Below, one piece after another: positions 22,819 through 43,288 of a stretch of DNA of 64,000 nt. Position numbers and translations under genes: made by a program. Source of the DNA: Escherichia coli. GTDB taxonomy: Bacteria; Pseudomonadota; Gammaproteobacteria; Enterobacterales; Enterobacteriaceae. Location of the stretch: assembly GCF_003334785.1 (NCBI RefSeq), contig NZ_QOWV01000017.1. The stretch is one strand, 5' to 3'. The notes under the pieces are model-generated. The model searched no databases. It saw only the letters and a list, made by a program, of their open reading frames with translations, and was not told the origin of the DNA. The first letter of the stretch is position 1. The number at the start of each line of letters is the position of its first letter.

Positions 22819-23344
22819 AACTAATACTCCATTACTTCATGCCCATTTATGCCCGATGTTTCCCCCCCACCGGGGGATCAATCATCAATAAATATGGCGT
22901 TCTTTTTTAATTGGCTAGCAACATACCACCCCTCATTTGTATGACAAATGATAATCTTTCATCCAAACGTCAAATGCAATAACTAATTTTATTTCTTTCG
23001 GCATCGCTCACATTTTATGGGGAAATCGACGATCATTTTTGGCATAAGAAATCCATTTAAAAATGGCTACATCCCTTATACCTATTCAGAGCTACTTATT
23101 CAGGGGTTATTGAGATATACACTGATGGTGTACAAAAAAATCACCGACAATAATCACGTATCAAGTAATAGTCGGGATTTTATTTAATTGAAGCAATTTA
23201 GTTTGCATTTTTATTTAAAAACTGAGCTAGAGTCCATCAGAAAAAATATATAAAGCCCAAACCACCGTTGGAAATAGAAATAGTTGAAAGGCTCACAACT
23301 CCCGGAATGCGGATTATCTTTGCCCTGATTTCTGGCGGTTTTAT

Positions 23345-24199
23345 TCAGGGTGCAAGCTGTCTGACCCTTTCCCGATATTCTCCCGGGGTACAACCAAACT
23401 CGCGGACAAACGCCTTGTGAAAAGATGATTCACTGGCATAGCCTACTGACTCAGCGATCACCACAACAGGGAGCGTTTCCCGGGAAAACATCTGGGCCGC
23501 TATTTGTAGACGCAACTTTGTTAATACAGCCAGCGGCGTGGTTCCGGAAACATCACGGAAAAGCTGGGCAAAACTTGCCCGGGACATGTGAGCGATGCTG
23601 GCCAGCGATTCGACGGTCCAGGCGTGTCCTGGCATTTCCAGCATTTGCTGTATTACCGCACCAAGACGTGGATGCAGAAGCAAACTGAGAATGTTTTTCT
23701 CAGTATTAACCTGTGCAATCCACTCACGCACCGCGAGGGTAAAGAATGTAGCGCAGATCTGGCTACACAGTGCATCCACTCCCGGCATTGCCGATCTGGA
23801 TTCCTGTTGTAAAAACGGGATCGCCTCCCTCAGCCAGTTATATTCCACGCTGTGGTTAACCGGTGCTAAAAACAGCGTTTCCGGCAAAGACGTTAAAAAA
23901 TAACGCGCCGAATGTTGCAACCGAAGAGTGCCGCAGACAATACTGGTCGATTCATTATCGACATGACTCAGGCGATGAGCTGAATTTTGTGGTAGCAGGA
24001 CCACATTTCCCGGGCGTAATGTAAAAATCTCCCCCGTCGGCATTTCCAGCTTCGCCGCTCCTTGCGTTAACGCATGCCAACGAATAACCGATAATTCCCC
24101 GGCACCATGTGGAAGCTGCCAGTCACTTCCTAACACGCAATTCTTATCGATCGTTCCTTGTGGAGCGTTAAGCATCAACAAACGGCTAAGGGCATCCAT
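23345..24199 (-). CDS. rclR: AraC-family redox-sensing activator of the rcl operon
   Basis: 284 aa; C-terminal AraC-type HTH; divergent from rclABC. Confidence 0.85.
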   Translation of the reverse strand: MDALSRLLMLNAPQGTIDKNCVLGSDWQLPHGAGELSVIRWHALTQGAAKLEMPTGEIFTLRPGNVVLLPQNSAHRLSHVDNESTSIVCGTLRLQHSARYFLTSLPETLFLAPVNHSVEYNWLREAIPFLQQESRSAMPGVDALCSQICATFFTLAVREWIAQVNTEKNILSLLLHPRLGAVIQQMLEMPGHAWTVESLASIAHMSRASFAQLFRDVSGTTPLAVLTKLRLQIAAQMFSRETLPVVVIAESVGYASESSFHKAFVREFGCTPGEYRERVRQLAP

Positions 24200-24424
24200 A
24201 TCAGACTCCTGAGTGGTTTTTGATTACAAACACCAACAATCTTAGTAAATAACTAATCTAATACCATCAAATAGTTAATCATGATTTTTGTTTTGTGATT
24301 CTGATTAAGAAAAAGAAAATATCAGACGATAAGACAAAATATCAAGCGTTGTGAAGAAATGTTATTTGCTCTTTTGCGTCTATAGTCATGATGTCAAATG
24401 AACGCGTTTCGACAGGAAATCATC

Positions 24425-25750
24425 ATGAATAAATATCAGGCAGTGATTATTGGTTTTGGCAAGGCTGGAAAAACATTAGCCGTCACGCTGGCAAAAGCAG
24501 GTTGGCGAGTGGCTCTCATCGAACAATCAAATGCAATGTATGGCGGGACCTGTATTAATATCGGCTGCATCCCAACCAAAACATTGGTTCATGACGCACA
24601 GCAGCACACAGATTTTGTCCGTGCCATACAGCGTAAAAATGAAGTGGTTAATTTTTTACGTAATAAGAATTTTCATAATCTTGCGGATATGCCCAATATC
24701 GACGTGATCGACGGCCAGGCGGAGTTTATCAATAATCATAGCCTGCGTGTTCATCGGCCTGAGGGAAATCTGGAAATTCATGGCGAGAAAATTTTTATTA
24801 ATACCGGTGCACAAACCGTGGTTCCGCCAATTCCTGGAATTACCACCACGCCAGGAGTATATGACAGCACCGGATTACTTAATCTAAAAGAATTGCCTGG
24901 GCATTTAGGTATTTTGGGCGGCGGATATATTGGCGTTGAGTTCGCCTCTATGTTCGCTAATTTTGGCAGCAAGGTAACCATTTTAGAAGCAGCTTCGCTG
25001 TTTTTGCCTCGGGAAGATCGGGATATTGCTGATAATATCGCGACGATTTTACGCGATCAGGGCGTCGATATTATCCTCAATGCCCATGTGGAGCGAATCA
25101 GTCACCATGAAAATCAAGTGCAAGTGCATAGCGAGCACGCCCAACTGGCGGTGGATGCACTGTTAATAGCTTCCGGTCGTCAACCGGCTACCGCTTCGTT
25201 ACATCCAGAAAATGCCGGTATCGCAGTAAACGAGCGCGGGGCAATTGTCGTTGACAAGCGATTACATACCACCGCAGACAATATTTGGGCGATGGGAGAT
25301 GTTACCGGCGGGCTGCAATTTACTTACATATCACTGGATGATTACCGCATTGTACGTGATGAGTTACTGGGTGAAGGCAAACGTAGTACTGATGATCGGA
25401 AAAATGTGCCTTATTCCGTATTTATGACACCGCCCCTGTCCAGGGTTGGTATGACAGAAGAACAAGCCAGAGAGAGTGGTGCTGATATTCAGGTGGTGAC
25501 ATTGCCTGTAGCTGCAATTCCGCGTGCCAGAGTGATGAATGATACTCGTGGGGTATTAAAAGCGATTGTTGATAATAAAACCCAACGTATGTTAGGGGCA
25601 TCACTGCTGTGTGTTGACTCCCACGAGATGATCAATATAGTGAAAATGGTGATGGATGCCGGGCTGCCTTATAGCATATTACGCGATCAGATATTTACTC
25701 ATCCGTCGATGAGCGAATCACTCAATGATCTATTTTCATTAGTCAAATAA
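24425..25750 (+). CDS. rclA: pyridine nucleotide-disulfide oxidoreductase (RclA)
   Basis: 441 aa from MNKYQAVIIGFGKAGK; redox-active GGTCINIGCIPTK; FAD/NAD dinucleotide folds. Confidence 0.9.
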   Translation: MNKYQAVIIGFGKAGKTLAVTLAKAGWRVALIEQSNAMYGGTCINIGCIPTKTLVHDAQQHTDFVRAIQRKNEVVNFLRNKNFHNLADMPNIDVIDGQAEFINNHSLRVHRPEGNLEIHGEKIFINTGAQTVVPPIPGITTTPGVYDSTGLLNLKELPGHLGILGGGYIGVEFASMFANFGSKVTILEAASLFLPREDRDIADNIATILRDQGVDIILNAHVERISHHENQVQVHSEHAQLAVDALLIASGRQPATASLHPENAGIAVNERGAIVVDKRLHTTADNIWAMGDVTGGLQFTYISLDDYRIVRDELLGEGKRSTDDRKNVPYSVFMTPPLSRVGMTEEQARESGADIQVVTLPVAAIPRARVMNDTRGVLKAIVDNKTQRMLGASLLCVDSHEMINIVKMVMDAGLPYSILRDQIFTHPSMSESLNDLFSLVK

Positions 25751-25858
25751 ACTCAAAATCAGACGCCAGAACAAATATTCTGGCGTCTCAGAGAAAAGAA
25801 TCTTATTAATTCTCTGTTACTCTATAACTTCTTAATCACTTCATTGATGGTATTTTAT

Positions 25859-26095
25859 ATGTTTAAAAAATCTGTTTTATTTGCAACACTATTATCTGGC
25901 GTTATGGCATTTTCCACCAATGCAGATGATAAAATAATTCTGAAACATATCAGCGTCTCGTCAGTATCAGCATCACCGACAGTTCTGGAGGATACCATTG
26001 CTGATATAGCCAGAAAATATAATGCTTCATCCTGGAAAGTCACATCGATGCGAATTGATAATAATTCAACCGCAACAGCAGTATTGTATAAATAA
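25859..26095 (+). CDS. rclB: small periplasmic protein RclB (signal peptide)
   Basis: 78 aa from MFKKSVLFATLLSGVMAFSTNA. Confidence 0.8.
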   Translation: MFKKSVLFATLLSGVMAFSTNADDKIILKHISVSSVSASPTVLEDTIADIARKYNASSWKVTSMRIDNNSTATAVLYK

Positions 26096-26106
26096 GGATG
26101 TTCACA

Positions 26107-26700
26107 ATGGAAAAATACCTGCACCTGTTAAGTCGGGGAGATAAAATTGGCCTGACATTGATTCGTCTGAGTATTGCAATTGTTTTTATGTGGATTGGGT
26201 TATTAAAGTTTGTCCCTTACGAGGCAGACAGCATTACACCATTCGTCGCAAACAGTCCACTAATGTCGTTCTTTTATGAACACCCGGAAGACTATAAACA
26301 GTATCTGACTCACGAAGGCGAATACAAACCAGAAGCAAGGGCATGGCAAACGGCCAATAATACCTATGGTTTTTCCAACGGTCTTGGCGTCGTGGAGGTG
26401 ATTATTGCTCTGCTGGTTTTGGCTAATCCTGTCAATCGCTGGTTAGGTTTATTGGGAGGACTGATGGCATTTACCACGCCGCTGGTAACACTCTCATTTT
26501 TAATCACCACCCCGGAGGCATGGGTACCCGCATTGGGTGACGCTCATCATGGTTTCCCTTATTTATCCGGTGCTGGTCGCCTGGTATTGAAAGATACTCT
26601 GATGCTGGCAGGTGCAGTCATGATAATGGCAGATTCGGCGCGGGAAATTCTTAAACAACGCAGTAATGAATCCAGTTCAACGTTAAAAACTGAATATTGA
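26107..26700 (+). CDS. rclC: inner-membrane protein RclC (DUF417)
   Basis: 197 aa from MEKYLHLL; multiple TM helices. Confidence 0.8.
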   Translation: MEKYLHLLSRGDKIGLTLIRLSIAIVFMWIGLLKFVPYEADSITPFVANSPLMSFFYEHPEDYKQYLTHEGEYKPEARAWQTANNTYGFSNGLGVVEVIIALLVLANPVNRWLGLLGGLMAFTTPLVTLSFLITTPEAWVPALGDAHHGFPYLSGAGRLVLKDTLMLAGAVMIMADSAREILKQRSNESSSTLKTEY

Positions 26701-27256
26701 TAATCCGAACACTGTCTGTTGTTCACTTTTTCAGGCGTCAGGCCCCCTTTCTGATGATGAAGCCTGACGCCATATTACCGGAGATATGACAGAGTGAAGA
26801 TCAATATCACTCCCTGTTAAAAGGTTTTTGTCGTCTTAGGTAAAATACATGATTAATATCAATCATGTATTTTTACAGCAAGACAACCACGAACAAATTC
26901 AGGATTAAAATGTTTTACCGACTCCCCAACATAACCCAAATCAAGCGAACTAATTTGTGCCATTTCTTTATCTGTCAGTGAGAAATCGATTTTTGATGGG
27001 CATCTGCAATACTCTGAAGCAGACTATACGGAAAATTCCACTGTCAGTCCCTCCATTAGGCATGAACAATGAGTCTACGTTAAAACGTAACCTCAAAGTA
27101 GTATGTGGATTTTGATATCACTTATGCAAAAAATTCATTAATAATGTAGGACTGAAACCTCTCTATTTTCGGGGACAACGAAGCAGACGCTACCAGTGCT
27201 TTTGCCTTCGCCCTTGCTATTTTTGATACACTTAGGGCCCAGGGTATAACGAAAAT

Positions 27257-28141
27257 GTGCGATATGACAAAGAATTAACGGAGAATGAGATGATCAGGCA
27301 GAAGATTCTACAGCAGCTCCTGGAGTGGATTGAGTGCAATCTTGAGCACCCTATTTCAATCGAAGATATCGCACAGAAATCTGGCTACAGCAGACGCAAC
27401 ATCCAGCTTCTGTTCCGAAATTTCATGCATGTGCCTTTGGGAGAATACATTCGCAAACGAAGGCTTTGTCGTGCCGCCATTCTTGTCCGGCTCACCGCGA
27501 AATCTATGCTTGATATTGCACTCTCTTTGCATTTTGATTCACAGCAGTCATTCAGCCGCGAATTTAAAAAGTTATTCGGCTGCTCTCCCCGTGAATACCG
27601 CCACCGTGATTATTGGGATCTCGCAAATATCTTCCCTTCTTTTTTAATACGTCAACAGCAAAAGACGGAGTGTAGATTAATCAACTTTCCTGAGACACCT
27701 ATTTTTGGCAACTCATTTAAATATGACATTGAAGTGTCGAATAAATCACCGGATGAAGAAGTCAAACTACGACGTCATCATTTAGCCAGATGTATGAAGA
27801 ATTTTAAGACGGATATCTATTTCGTTTCCACGTTTGAACCGTCAACAAAATCGGTCGATTTGCTCACGGTTGAAACTTTTGCTGGTACGGTATGTGAATA
27901 TGCTGACATGCCAAAAGAGTGGACAACGACCCGAGGACTTTATGCCTCTTTCCGTTATGAAGGAAACTGGGGAAATTATCCTGACTGGGTGCGTAACATC
28001 TATCTGATAGAGTTACCTGCCAGGGGGTTAGCCAGAGTGAACGGCAGCGATATTGAGCGCTTTTATTACAATGAAGATTTCGTAGAAAAGGATGGCAATG
28101 ATGTTGTTTGCGAAATTTTTATTCCCGTTCGTCCGGTTTAG
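27257..28141 (+). CDS. ykgA: Rob-like regulator: AraC-type HTH N-domain + GyrI-like C-domain
   Basis: 294 aa ORF; N-terminal dual HTH similar to MarA/Rob; C-terminus CEIFIPVRPV resembles the Rob C-terminus; an internal start at MIRQKIL is possible. Confidence 0.75.
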   Translation: MRYDKELTENEMIRQKILQQLLEWIECNLEHPISIEDIAQKSGYSRRNIQLLFRNFMHVPLGEYIRKRRLCRAAILVRLTAKSMLDIALSLHFDSQQSFSREFKKLFGCSPREYRHRDYWDLANIFPSFLIRQQQKTECRLINFPETPIFGNSFKYDIEVSNKSPDEEVKLRRHHLARCMKNFKTDIYFVSTFEPSTKSVDLLTVETFAGTVCEYADMPKEWTTTRGLYASFRYEGNWGNYPDWVRNIYLIELPARGLARVNGSDIERFYYNEDFVEKDGNDVVCEIFIPVRPV

Positions 28142-28169: not shown

Positions 28170-28205
28170 CCTTGCCTGATACTATTTAATCAGTATCAGG
28201 CAAGG
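28170..28205. terminator. perfect 14-bp inverted repeat between convergent ykgA and eaeH
   Basis: ccttgcctgatact-atttaatc-agtatcaggcaagg read directly; no strong U-tract on either side, so function uncertain. Confidence 0.4.
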
Positions 28206-43041: not shown

Positions 43042-43246
43042 ACATACAATAATTAATTGCACTGCCCCGCCAGCGATAATAGCGGGGCTTCGTTTTTCAG
43101 GGGTAACAAAACCCGATACTTCTTCTATTTGCCAGCAACAATGCCTCTCTTCTGTAGCGTTCTTCGGATCTACATCATCCTGAAGTAGCGCGATATACTC
43201 ACTGACTATCTGCATCAGAATATAAAAAGCAATGTTTTTAACCTAT

Positions 43247-43275
43247 AAAAATGGCGCTGTATTTGCGCCATTTTT
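43247..43275. terminator. bidirectional rho-independent terminator between convergent ykgJ and yagU
   Basis: aaaaatggcgc-tgtattt-gcgccattttt: 9-bp GC-containing stem flanked by an A-run and a T-run. Confidence 0.65.
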
Positions 43276-43288
43276 ATCATTCAATGCA

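What the first reader, a model, noticed from the sequence alone, without database searches (positions are those of the whole stretch)
26701..27256. rclC-ykgA spacer carries two strong palindromes
A 10-11 bp GC-rich inverted repeat with an 18-nt loop (aggcgtcaggc...gcctgacgcc, about 26733-26771) and a perfect 13-bp AT-rich palindrome aaaatacatgatt-aatatc-aatcatgtatttt (26842-26873) lie in a 556-bp gap with no credible ORF. Neither looks like a canonical terminator. They could be operator sites, for example for the Rob-like YkgA downstream, or relics of a degraded gene.
Basis: seen in the sequence. Interest (0 to 1): 0.3.

Follow-up and report, generated by a model that had tools for sequence, protein, structure and literature searches.

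The report
Tail hairpins beside a decayed reductase gene
The "spacer" is the wreck of an aldo-keto reductase gene that is intact in about half of E. coli strains, and the two palindromes are the ordinary hairpins at the ends of two genes that once met tail to tail, not operator sites for YkgA.

Summary
Both palindromes are real and non-random. The GC-rich one has 10-bp perfect arms (26734-26743 / 26762-26771) and an 18-nt loop. The AT-rich one is 13+6+13 (26842-26873).

The 556-bp gap is not a true spacer. It is a DkgA-like aldo/keto reductase gene (AKR; K-12 pseudogene ykgQ) on the minus strand, gutted by two deletions of 100 bp and about 587 bp. The gene body is still present in 2,950 of 5,426 complete E. 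coli genomes.

In the ancestral layout, rclC and the AKR converge. Both palindromes lie in their 158-bp tail-to-tail junction. The right arm of the AT palindrome encodes the AKR's last codons (K-I-H-D) and the first base of its stop codon. The GC hairpin starts 33 nt after the rclC stop, about where other rclC copies carry canonical terminators.

All six convergent junctions in the annotated part of the window hold a perfect inverted repeat of at least 10 bp. The inner AT stem shows two compensatory changes in sister Escherichia species, but 44% of E. coli genomes carry an uncompensated broken version.

Best reading: transcript-end hairpins (non-canonical or bidirectional terminators, or 3' stabilisers). 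The AT hairpin is largely vestigial here. The YkgA-operator idea is not supported. This is ordinary and of low interest.

The parts
26107..26700 (+). rclC coding sequence, last gene of rclABC; stop codon at 26698-26700
   Evidence: RefSeq annotation of identical K-12 and EC-129 sequence; ORF list
26734..26771 (.). GC-rich inverted repeat, 10-bp perfect arms and 18-nt loop, starting 33 nt after the rclC stop. Proposed 3' stem-loop of the rclABC transcript, without a U-tract.
   Evidence: Single copy per genome and identical over 65 nt in 3,598 of 5,049 matching records. The divergent allele L055 keeps 9 of 10 stem pairs while the loop is rewritten. Other rclC copies have canonical terminators at a similar distance after the stop.
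26792..26812 (.).
   Evidence: Read from the sequence; predicted on both strands
26842..26873 (.). AT-rich palindrome 13+6+13. The right arm (26861-26873) is the last codons K-I-H-D of the reductase plus the first base of its stop codon (stop at 26859-26861, minus strand). Layout is A-tract/stem/T-tract on both strands.
   Evidence: Compensatory changes in the inner stem in sister species. Allele counts.
26826..26889 (-). Extended imperfect hairpin around the AT palindrome on the reductase-sense strand (GUUGUCUUG...CUAAGACGAC outer stem)
   Evidence: Folds
26859..26987 (-). Remnant of the aldo/keto reductase gene (K-12 ykgQ): the C-terminal 42 codons
   Evidence: Annotated as a partial aldo/keto reductase in K-12 HMS174 and EC-129. 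Aligns to L002 2660-2788. Translation.
26979..27027 (-). 49-bp internal fragment of the reductase gene between the two deletions. Junction 1 is a 9-bp direct-repeat microhomology TGAGAAATC (26979-26987; 100 bp lost). Junction 2 lies near 27026/27027 (about 587 bp lost).
27026..27041 (-). First five codons or so of the reductase gene, still attached to its promoter region
   Evidence: Window 27026 onward matches L002 3514 onward; the annotated start is L002 3529
27042..27289 (.). Divergent promoter region shared by the reductase gene and ykgA. This is the place where YkgA operators would be expected.
   Evidence: Synteny with intact loci L002 and L003
27290..28141 (+). ykgA, an intact Rob-like AraC-family regulator

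Best explanation
The rclC-ykgA 'spacer' is a decayed gene. In the ancestral E. coli arrangement, a 289-aa DkgA-like aldo/keto reductase (AKR) lies on the minus strand. It is transcribed divergently from ykgA and convergently with rclABC. In the lineage of this window (as in K-12, where the remnant is called ykgQ), two internal deletions removed about 687 bp. What remains is the promoter, the first five codons or so, a 49-bp scrap and the last 42 codons.

Both palindromes sit in the 158-bp junction where the 3' ends of rclC and the AKR meet.

The AT palindrome is the AKR's own 3' hairpin. It closes over the stop codon and has an A-tract on one side and a U-tract on the other. It therefore looks like a weak bidirectional terminator or 3' end-protecting stem-loop. 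In this genome the AKR is dead, so the hairpin is mostly vestigial. At most it acts as a weak barrier to read-through from rclABC and from the orphaned AKR promoter.

The GC hairpin is the 3' stem-loop of the rclABC transcript. It has no U-tract, so it most likely marks or stabilises the RNA 3' end, either as a pause or collision point at a convergent junction or as a block to 3' exonucleases after Rho-dependent termination. It is unlikely to act as a classical intrinsic terminator.

Shown: the gene remnant, the positions relative to both stop codons, the folding, the population and cross-species patterns. Inferred: the termination or stabilisation function.
For: Gene decay.
- The spacer is 100% identical to K-12. 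In O157 and B2 strains it aligns in three pieces spread over about 1,243 bp that carry an intact 870-bp AKR gene.
- The deleted body is present in 2,950 of 5,426 genomes.
- The junctions are mapped; one has a 9-bp microhomology.

Position.
- The AKR stop is at 26859-26861, so the right arm of the AT palindrome is coding (K-I-H-D plus the first stop base).
- The GC hairpin starts 33 nt after the rclC stop.
- Other rclC copies (L060, L061) carry canonical GC-stem plus T-tract terminators at a similar distance.

Structure.
- Each hairpin forms on both strands.
- The whole junction is unusually structured, z -6.0 and -5.6.

Context.
- All six convergent gene junctions in the annotated part of the window hold a perfect inverted repeat of at least 10 bp. 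They account for 7 of the 12 such repeats, and most lack T-tracts.
- This matches the class of stem-loop-dependent bidirectional terminators at convergent E. coli gene pairs, described as unlike intrinsic terminators and Rho-independent (bioRxiv 10.1101/2022.10.23.513370, citing Ju et al. 2019).

Evolution.
- In sister Escherichia (L005, L006) the stop-spanning hairpin persists with two compensatory double changes (G-C to A-U, U-A to C-G) and the same 6-nt loop.
- The divergent GC-hairpin allele L055 keeps 9 of 10 stem pairs while about a third of the loop changes.
Against: - No experimental 3' end could be found here. The Term-seq supplements searched list no rclC or ykgQ 3' end. rclABC is poorly expressed without hypochlorite stress.
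- Neither hairpin passes a canonical terminator scan. The GC hairpin has an 18-nt loop and no U-tract on either strand. The AT stem has only two G-C pairs.
- The AT palindrome is not under tight constraint within E. coli. It is perfect in 2,812 genomes. It is broken, with no compensation, in 1,180 genomes (CA to AG) and 675 genomes (C to T), including strains whose AKR is intact.
- The covariation rests on only two independent events in few sequences.
Confidence: 0.6

Rival explanations
1. The palindromes are neutral leftovers with no present function. The AT palindrome is only the fossil 3' end of a dead gene, and the GC hairpin is a chance-fixed structure in non-coding DNA.
For: - The AKR is dead in this genome.
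- 44% of E. coli genomes that carry the element have an uncompensated broken AT palindrome.
- IS1 has inserted in the spacer in some strains. In one strain the match ends inside the loop of the GC hairpin, next to an IS1.
Against: - Perfect inverted repeats of this size are about 10 to 100 times more frequent in the window than in random sequence, and every convergent junction has one.
- The inner AT stem shows compensatory changes across species.
- The GC stem is retained in the divergent L055 allele while its loop is rewritten.
Confidence: 0.25
2. One or both palindromes are operator sites for a DNA-binding protein: YkgA, or another dimeric regulator. For example, the AT core ATGAT-TAAT-ATCAA resembles the FNR/CRP-type TTGAT-N4-ATCAA motif at 9 of 10 positions (my reading of the sequence, compared with the consensus from memory).
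For: - The symmetry is perfect, and the AT palindrome has the 13-6-13 layout typical of dimer sites.
- A weak promoter-like match (26817-26846) overlaps its left arm.
Against: - The location is at the 3' ends of two convergent genes, far from any promoter in the ancestral layout.
- Rob, MarA and SoxS-type proteins bind asymmetric marboxes as monomers (established knowledge). YkgA is of this type, and no marbox lies in the spacer.
- Promoter-like matches are fewer than expected by chance (1 against 2.4).
- The symmetry is broken in 44% of genomes.
- Half of the AT palindrome is dictated by conserved codons.
Confidence: 0.08
3. The AT palindrome is a DNA-level recombination site or scar marking the edge of the rclR-rclABC block, which is present in E. 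coli but absent at this spot in sister Escherichia species.
For: - Homology with E. whittamii, Escherichia sp. E1V33 and a third Escherichia lineage stops within a few bases of the palindrome. It resumes at about window 23254-23262.
- Arms plus a 6-bp centre resemble tyrosine-recombinase core sites (resemblance recalled from memory, not tested).
Against: - No copy of either half-site lies at the left edge of the block.
- No integrase or transposase lies in the block.
- A shorter version of the hairpin already exists in the species that lack the block, so the hairpin predates or is independent of the indel.
Confidence: 0.04

Closest known systems
Bidirectional terminators at convergent E. coli gene pairs (Ju, Li and Liu 2019, as summarised in bioRxiv 10.1101/2022.10.23.513370)
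   Same: They lie between the 3' ends of convergent genes. They form a stem-loop on both strands. They do not resemble canonical intrinsic terminators. The same kind of palindrome is found at all six convergent junctions of this window.
   Different: No transcript-end data exist for this locus. In this genome one partner gene is dead, so convergent transcription, and any collision mechanism, is largely lost.
Intrinsic (Rho-independent) terminators
   Same: A hairpin shortly after a stop codon. The AT hairpin has the A-tract/stem/U-tract symmetry of a two-way terminator. Other rclC copies have true intrinsic terminators at about the position of the GC hairpin.
   Different: The GC hairpin has an 18-nt loop and no U-tract. 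The AT stem has only two G-C pairs. Neither passes the scan.
3' end-protecting stem-loops of Rho-terminated mRNAs, including REP elements (established knowledge)
   Same: A stable GC-rich hairpin without a U-tract, downstream of the last gene of an operon.
   Different: It is single-copy, not a dispersed repeat (1 place per genome). No Rfam family matches. A Rho-dependent 3' end is recorded inside rclB, not after rclC.
K-12 pseudogene ykgQ (aldo/keto reductase fragment)
   Same: The window sequence is 100% identical to K-12 across the spacer. RefSeq annotates 26859-26987 as a partial aldo/keto reductase. The literature names the ykgA-ykgQ intergenic region (PMC3118216).
   Different: The annotation covers only the C-terminal 42 codons. 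The internal scrap, the retained start and promoter, and the hairpins are not annotated.
Marbox operators of MarA, SoxS and Rob
   Same: YkgA is a Rob-like paralogue (PMC2064960).
   Different: Marboxes are asymmetric sites of about 20 bp in promoters. The palindromes are symmetric and sit at gene 3' ends. No marbox match lies in the spacer.

Membership tests
Intrinsic terminator | G+C-rich stem with a short loop (about 3-8 nt) | tested here: not met
   The GC hairpin has a G+C-rich 10-bp stem but an 18-nt loop. The AT hairpin has a 6-nt loop but only 2 G-C pairs in 13. The scan found no terminator-like site in 26500-27500.
Intrinsic terminator | U-rich tract immediately 3' of the stem | tested here: not met
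   GC hairpin: followed by AUAUUACC on the + strand and UGAAAAAG on the - strand. AT hairpin: UUUUU (+) and UUUU (-), but largely paired with the A-tract.
Bidirectional terminator at a convergent gene pair | Located between the 3' ends of two convergent genes | tested here: met
   In strains with the intact reductase, both palindromes lie in or at the edge of the 158-bp rclC/AKR tail-to-tail junction.
Bidirectional terminator at a convergent gene pair | Stem-loop able to form in transcripts of both strands | tested here: met
   The folds are significant on both strands.
Bidirectional terminator at a convergent gene pair | Overlapping transcript 3' ends from both directions, mapped experimentally | not testable with these tools
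   No 3' end for rclC or ykgQ appears in the supplements that could be searched. The original SEnd-seq paper is not held.
REP / dispersed extragenic palindromes | Many copies per genome | tested here: not met
   The GC hairpin has a median of 1 place per genome in 5,046 genomes. It has one match in the window.
Curated RNA families (Rfam 15) | Match to a covariance model | tested here: not met
   No match at E up to 1 in 26000-28000.
Marbox (MarA/SoxS/Rob-type operator) | Asymmetric consensus AYNGCACNNWNNRYYAAAY in a promoter region | tested here: not met
   There are no matches with at most 1 mismatch in the spacer. The two window matches lie elsewhere and are at chance level.
Pseudogene (decayed aldo/keto reductase) | Collinear homology to an intact gene at the same locus in related genomes, with a disrupted reading frame | tested here: met
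   Three collinear pieces match the intact gene of L002 and L003. There are two deletions, and the frame is broken. The intact body is present in 2,950 genomes.

The most novel reading that the evidence does not exclude
Loss of the reductase gene has placed the intact Rob-like regulator ykgA co-directionally downstream of rclABC, 590 bp away, with only U-tract-less or weak hairpins between them. In this lineage, hypochlorite-induced, RclR-driven transcription might read through both palindromes into ykgA. That would rewire a MarA/SoxS/Rob-family regulator into the reactive-chlorine response. The allelic state of the AT hairpin (perfect or broken) would tune the leak. A second, independent novel reading is that the stop-codon-spanning hairpin of the reductase is a conserved regulatory structure. 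It would couple translation termination to mRNA fate, and it would be kept by compensatory changes across Escherichia species.
Probability: 0.1. Interest if true: 0.4.

Novelty: new member of a known kind. Interest (0 to 1): 0.13.

Why it matters
It matters little beyond annotation. The result corrects the picture of the rclC-ykgA "intergenic region". It is a pseudogene plus a tail-to-tail junction, and the natural partner of ykgA is a divergently transcribed aldo/keto reductase, which is a plausible first target for this uncharacterised Rob paralogue. It also adds two examples, with natural perfect and broken alleles, to the class of non-canonical hairpins at convergent gene ends. These could serve as a ready-made allelic series for testing how such hairpins affect read-through.

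Tried and rejected
- Rfam scan of 26000-28000 at E up to 1: nothing.
- Canonical promoter/terminator scan: no terminator, and one promoter-like site, below chance.
- Published 3' end maps. Adams et al. 2021 lists only a Rho-dependent 3' end inside rclB. No supplements are held for PMC9023263. No hits in PMC10687069. No paper combines rclC with Term-seq. The Ju et al. 2019 paper is not held.
- Marbox search: no site in the spacer.
- Recombination-site idea: no half-site of the AT palindrome at the left edge of the rcl block.
- More divergent alleles of the GC hairpin, sought through RclC homologues. The closest homologues had the same flank. More distant ones are in other contexts with canonical terminators. 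So there is no covariation test beyond the L055 allele.
- One literature query was badly posed and returned only unrelated aldo-keto reductase papers.
- A possible wider hairpin between the Arg-Gly-Cys codons and the bases just after the stop in reductase orthologues of other genera was seen in the folds. It was not pursued, because minimum-energy folds always find some pairing.

Full report
**Observation**

The GC-rich one has perfect 10-bp arms, GGCGTCAGGC at 26734-26743 and GCCTGACGCC at 26762-26771, separated by 18 nt. The claimed 11th pair does not form. The AT-rich one is AAAATACATGATT-AATATC-AATCATGTATTTT at 26842-26873.

Each pattern occurs once in the 64-kb window, against 0.01 or fewer expected. 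Each folds much better than shuffled sequence on both strands.

Counted my own way, the window has 12 perfect inverted repeats of at least 10 bp with loops up to 20 nt, against 1.1 in Markov-1 random sequence. It has 5 of at least 13 bp, against 0.03. So the palindromes are real features, but of a kind that recurs in this window.

The consensus scan finds no canonical terminator in 26500-27500. Rfam has no match.

**What the "spacer" is**

The 556 bp are 100% identical to E. coli K-12 and are found in 5,064 of 5,426 complete E. coli genomes. In many genomes the same sequence aligns in three pieces spread over about 1,243 bp. There RefSeq annotates an intact 870-bp aldo/keto reductase (AKR) gene on the minus strand, between rclC and ykgA. 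Examples are O157:H7 TT12B and UM146.

The pieces map as follows:

| Window | L002 (O157, intact gene) |
|---|---|
| 26701-26987 | 2501-2788 |
| 26979-27027 | 2880-2928 |
| 27026 onward | 3514 onward |

The window therefore carries two internal deletions. One removed 100 bp between 9-bp direct repeats (TGAGAAATC). The other removed about 587 bp.

What is left is the AKR's promoter region and first five codons or so, a 49-bp scrap, and the last 42 codons. K-12 and EC-129 annotate that last piece as a partial aldo/keto reductase. The literature calls the remnant ykgQ (PMC3118216).

The deleted body is present in 2,950 of 5,426 genomes, so roughly 2,100 genomes carry the decayed form. The intact protein is DkgA-like but scores below the equivalog cut-off. 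YkgA is Rob-like, also below its cut-off.

**Where the palindromes sit in the ancestral layout**

rclC (+) and the AKR (-) converge. Their stop codons are at 26698-26700 and 26859-26861, leaving a 158-bp tail-to-tail junction.

The GC hairpin starts 33 nt after the rclC stop. The AT palindrome straddles the AKR stop. Its right arm (26861-26873) is the codons for K-I-H-D plus the first base of the stop codon, and its left arm is the first 13 non-coding bases beyond the loop.

The C-terminal peptide VKIHD is conserved in AKR orthologues across Enterobacteriaceae. Half of the palindrome is therefore fixed by coding, and the other half has evolved to match it.

On the AKR-sense strand the hairpin extends to about 64 nt (26826-26889). 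A third short hairpin (26792-26812) lies between the two. The 200-nt junction is unusually structured on both strands, z -6.0 and -5.6.

**Context in the window**

I used the annotation of strain EC-129, whose coordinates equal window coordinates minus 6700. The annotated part of the window has six convergent gene junctions: yahB/pdeL, ykgH/ykgG, rclC/AKR, ykgA/fdeC, ykgO/ykgL and ykgJ/yagU.

Every one holds at least one of the 12 perfect inverted repeats, and together they hold 7 of the 12. Only the ykgJ/yagU repeat looks like a textbook two-way terminator. The others lack T-tracts, like the pair under study.

This matches a described class. [quoted passage not shown] A nascent-RNA stem-loop is needed there to position RNA polymerase collisions (bioRxiv 10.1101/2022.10.23.513370, summarising Ju et al. 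2019).

**Evolution of the AT hairpin**

A sample of eight E. coli haplotypes shows substitutions in the non-coding arm and none that compensate. Exact-match counts over the complete genomes are:

| Allele | Genomes |
|---|---|
| Perfect palindrome | 2,812 |
| CA to AG (B2-type, two adjacent mismatches) | 1,180 |
| C to T | 675 |
| Other | about 380 |

About 44% of genomes therefore carry a broken stem, including strains with an intact AKR. The predicted energy of the 90-nt region falls from -26 to -16 kcal/mol in the B2 allele.

Between species the picture differs. Three sister lineages were compared: Escherichia sp. E1V33 (L006), a lineage labelled E. coli SCPM-O-B-8794 (L005), and E. whittamii (L034).

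In L005 and L006 the AKR ends AAC-TAA instead of GAT-TGA. The downstream arm has changed with it, AUAACU-AAUUAG-AGUUAU against AUGAUU-GAUAUU-AAUCAU. That gives two compensatory double changes with the same 6-nt loop. On the 12-sequence alignment the inner helix is 88% paired, with both-side changes at two of its six pairs. The true register beats all slid registers.

These are only two independent events, so the support is modest. E. whittamii has replaced most of the stem with a different hairpin just after the stop.

**Evolution of the GC hairpin**

The GC hairpin is single-copy, with a median of one place per genome. It is identical over 65 nt in 3,598 of 5,049 matching records. The sampled variants change only the loop.

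One divergent allele, at 80-90% identity in 176 records and exemplified by L055, has a rewritten loop and a diverged 5' flank. It still keeps 9 of 10 stem pairs and a similar folding energy.

The hairpin belongs to the rclR-rclABC block. In L005, L006 and L034 the AKR stop is followed after about 60 bp by the ykgE upstream region, which matches window 23254 and below. The block from about 23262 to about 26838 is therefore absent there.

Other rclABC copies carry canonical GC-stem plus T-tract terminators 50-85 nt after rclC. These are a second E. coli type (L060) and a Salmonella copy (L061). A transcript-end element is thus expected at about the position of the GC hairpin. The chromosomal E. 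coli version simply lacks the U-tract.

**Mechanism proposed**

Shown:
- Each convergent transcription unit carries its own 3' hairpin.
- Both hairpins form on either strand.
- Neither hairpin is canonical.

Inferred:
- The GC hairpin defines or protects the rclABC 3' end. It could be a pause or collision point, or a block to 3' exonucleases after factor-dependent termination.
- The AT hairpin, with A4-stem-loop-stem-U4/5, was the AKR's weak two-way terminator or 3' stabiliser overlapping the stop codon.

In this genome the AKR is dead, so the AT hairpin is largely a relic.

I put 0.6 on this reading as a whole. The structural and evolutionary part is close to certain. The functional part is about even odds against "no present function".

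**Why the operator idea fails**

In the ancestral layout the palindromes are separated from ykgA by a whole gene, and they lie at gene 3' ends. The place to look for YkgA sites is the divergent AKR/ykgA promoter region (27042-27289).

YkgA belongs to the SoxS/MarA/Rob group (PMC2064960, which also states that its targets are unknown). By established knowledge, members of this group bind asymmetric marboxes as monomers. No marbox match with at most one mismatch lies in the spacer. The GC hairpin is also absent from species that keep ykgA.

A resemblance of the AT core to an FNR/CRP-type half-site pair is noted but untested. It is unconvincing in such AT-rich, half-coding sequence.

**Verdict**

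It is partly wrong: these are not operators. The feature is an ordinary member of a known kind and of low interest.

The only mildly interesting residue concerns the reductase-deleted lineages. There the intact ykgA now lies co-directionally downstream of the HOCl-inducible rclABC operon, with only weak hairpins in between. That could allow read-through regulation. It is untested, and I put it at about 10%.

Noticed in passing
window about 23262-26838 (compare L005, L006, L034 at 3868-4200): The whole rclR-rclABC block is absent at this locus in E. whittamii, Escherichia sp. E1V33 and a third Escherichia lineage. There the reductase is followed directly by the ykgEFG upstream region. Whether E. 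coli gained the block or the sister species lost it was not resolved. No mobile-element signature was seen at the edges.
   Followed up: partly
window 10910-10946, 19826-19866, 28170-28205, 34570-34606, 43245-43277: Perfect inverted repeats of 10-15 bp sit at each of the other five convergent gene junctions (yahB/pdeL, ykgH/ykgG, ykgA/fdeC, ykgO/ykgL, ykgJ/yagU). Only the last has classic A- and T-tracts. The ykgO/ykgL repeat overlaps the 3' end of ykgL, much as the AT palindrome overlaps the reductase stop.
   Followed up: partly
window 25761-25788: An 11-bp perfect inverted repeat (AGACGCCAGAA caaata TTCTGGCGTCT) lies 11 nt after the rclA stop, inside the rclABC operon and before rclB. It could be an intra-operon attenuator or processing hairpin. 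Adams et al. 2021 list a Rho-dependent 3' end inside rclB.
   Followed up: no
window 9250-9270: A 10-1-10 perfect palindrome TTGTTGAATA-a-TATTCAACAA lies in the divergent yahD/yahC intergenic region. Unlike the palindromes studied, it is placed where an operator would be expected.
   Followed up: no
window 27022-27041: The sequence ACTATACGGAAAATTCCACT was reported as an AtoC-bound site in the 'ykgA-ykgQ' region by ChIP (PMC3118216). It spans deletion junction 2 of the reductase remnant, so its left end is a lineage-specific chimera.
   Followed up: partly
L056 (NZ_CM142823.1); hit H1 (NZ_AP045775.1): IS1 elements have inserted in this spacer in some strains. In LB858871 the match ends at about window 26759, inside the loop of the GC hairpin, next to an IS1A. 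It is followed by unrelated genes, including one for a NACHT-domain protein, in place of the reductase and ykgA.
   Followed up: no
L065, L066 (Logan SRR27475578, SRR27475715): These assembled contigs look C-to-T converted throughout, as after bisulfite or deaminase treatment. The exception is the cytosines inside the arms of the GC hairpin, as if the snap-back hairpin resisted conversion. The nature of the libraries was not checked.
   Followed up: no
L004, L005: In two Escherichia lineages the reductase is kept but ykgA and fdeC are missing. The reductase promoter region abuts sequence matching window about 32998-33087. The reductase can therefore persist without its presumed regulator.
   Followed up: no
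L028-L032, L037-L041: Close relatives of this reductase (53-77% amino-acid identity) occur in Lachnospiraceae, Erysipelotrichaceae and Treponema genomes assembled from gut metagenomes. This suggests cross-phylum transfer of the gene.
   Followed up: no
L055 (NZ_CP195351.1) 1440-1570; 176 records: A divergent allele covers the rclC 3' end, changing the C-terminus to ...STLKAE*, and runs through the 5' half of the GC hairpin. It switches back to the common sequence within the 3' arm. It looks like a recombination tract from a diverged Escherichia donor.
   Followed up: partly
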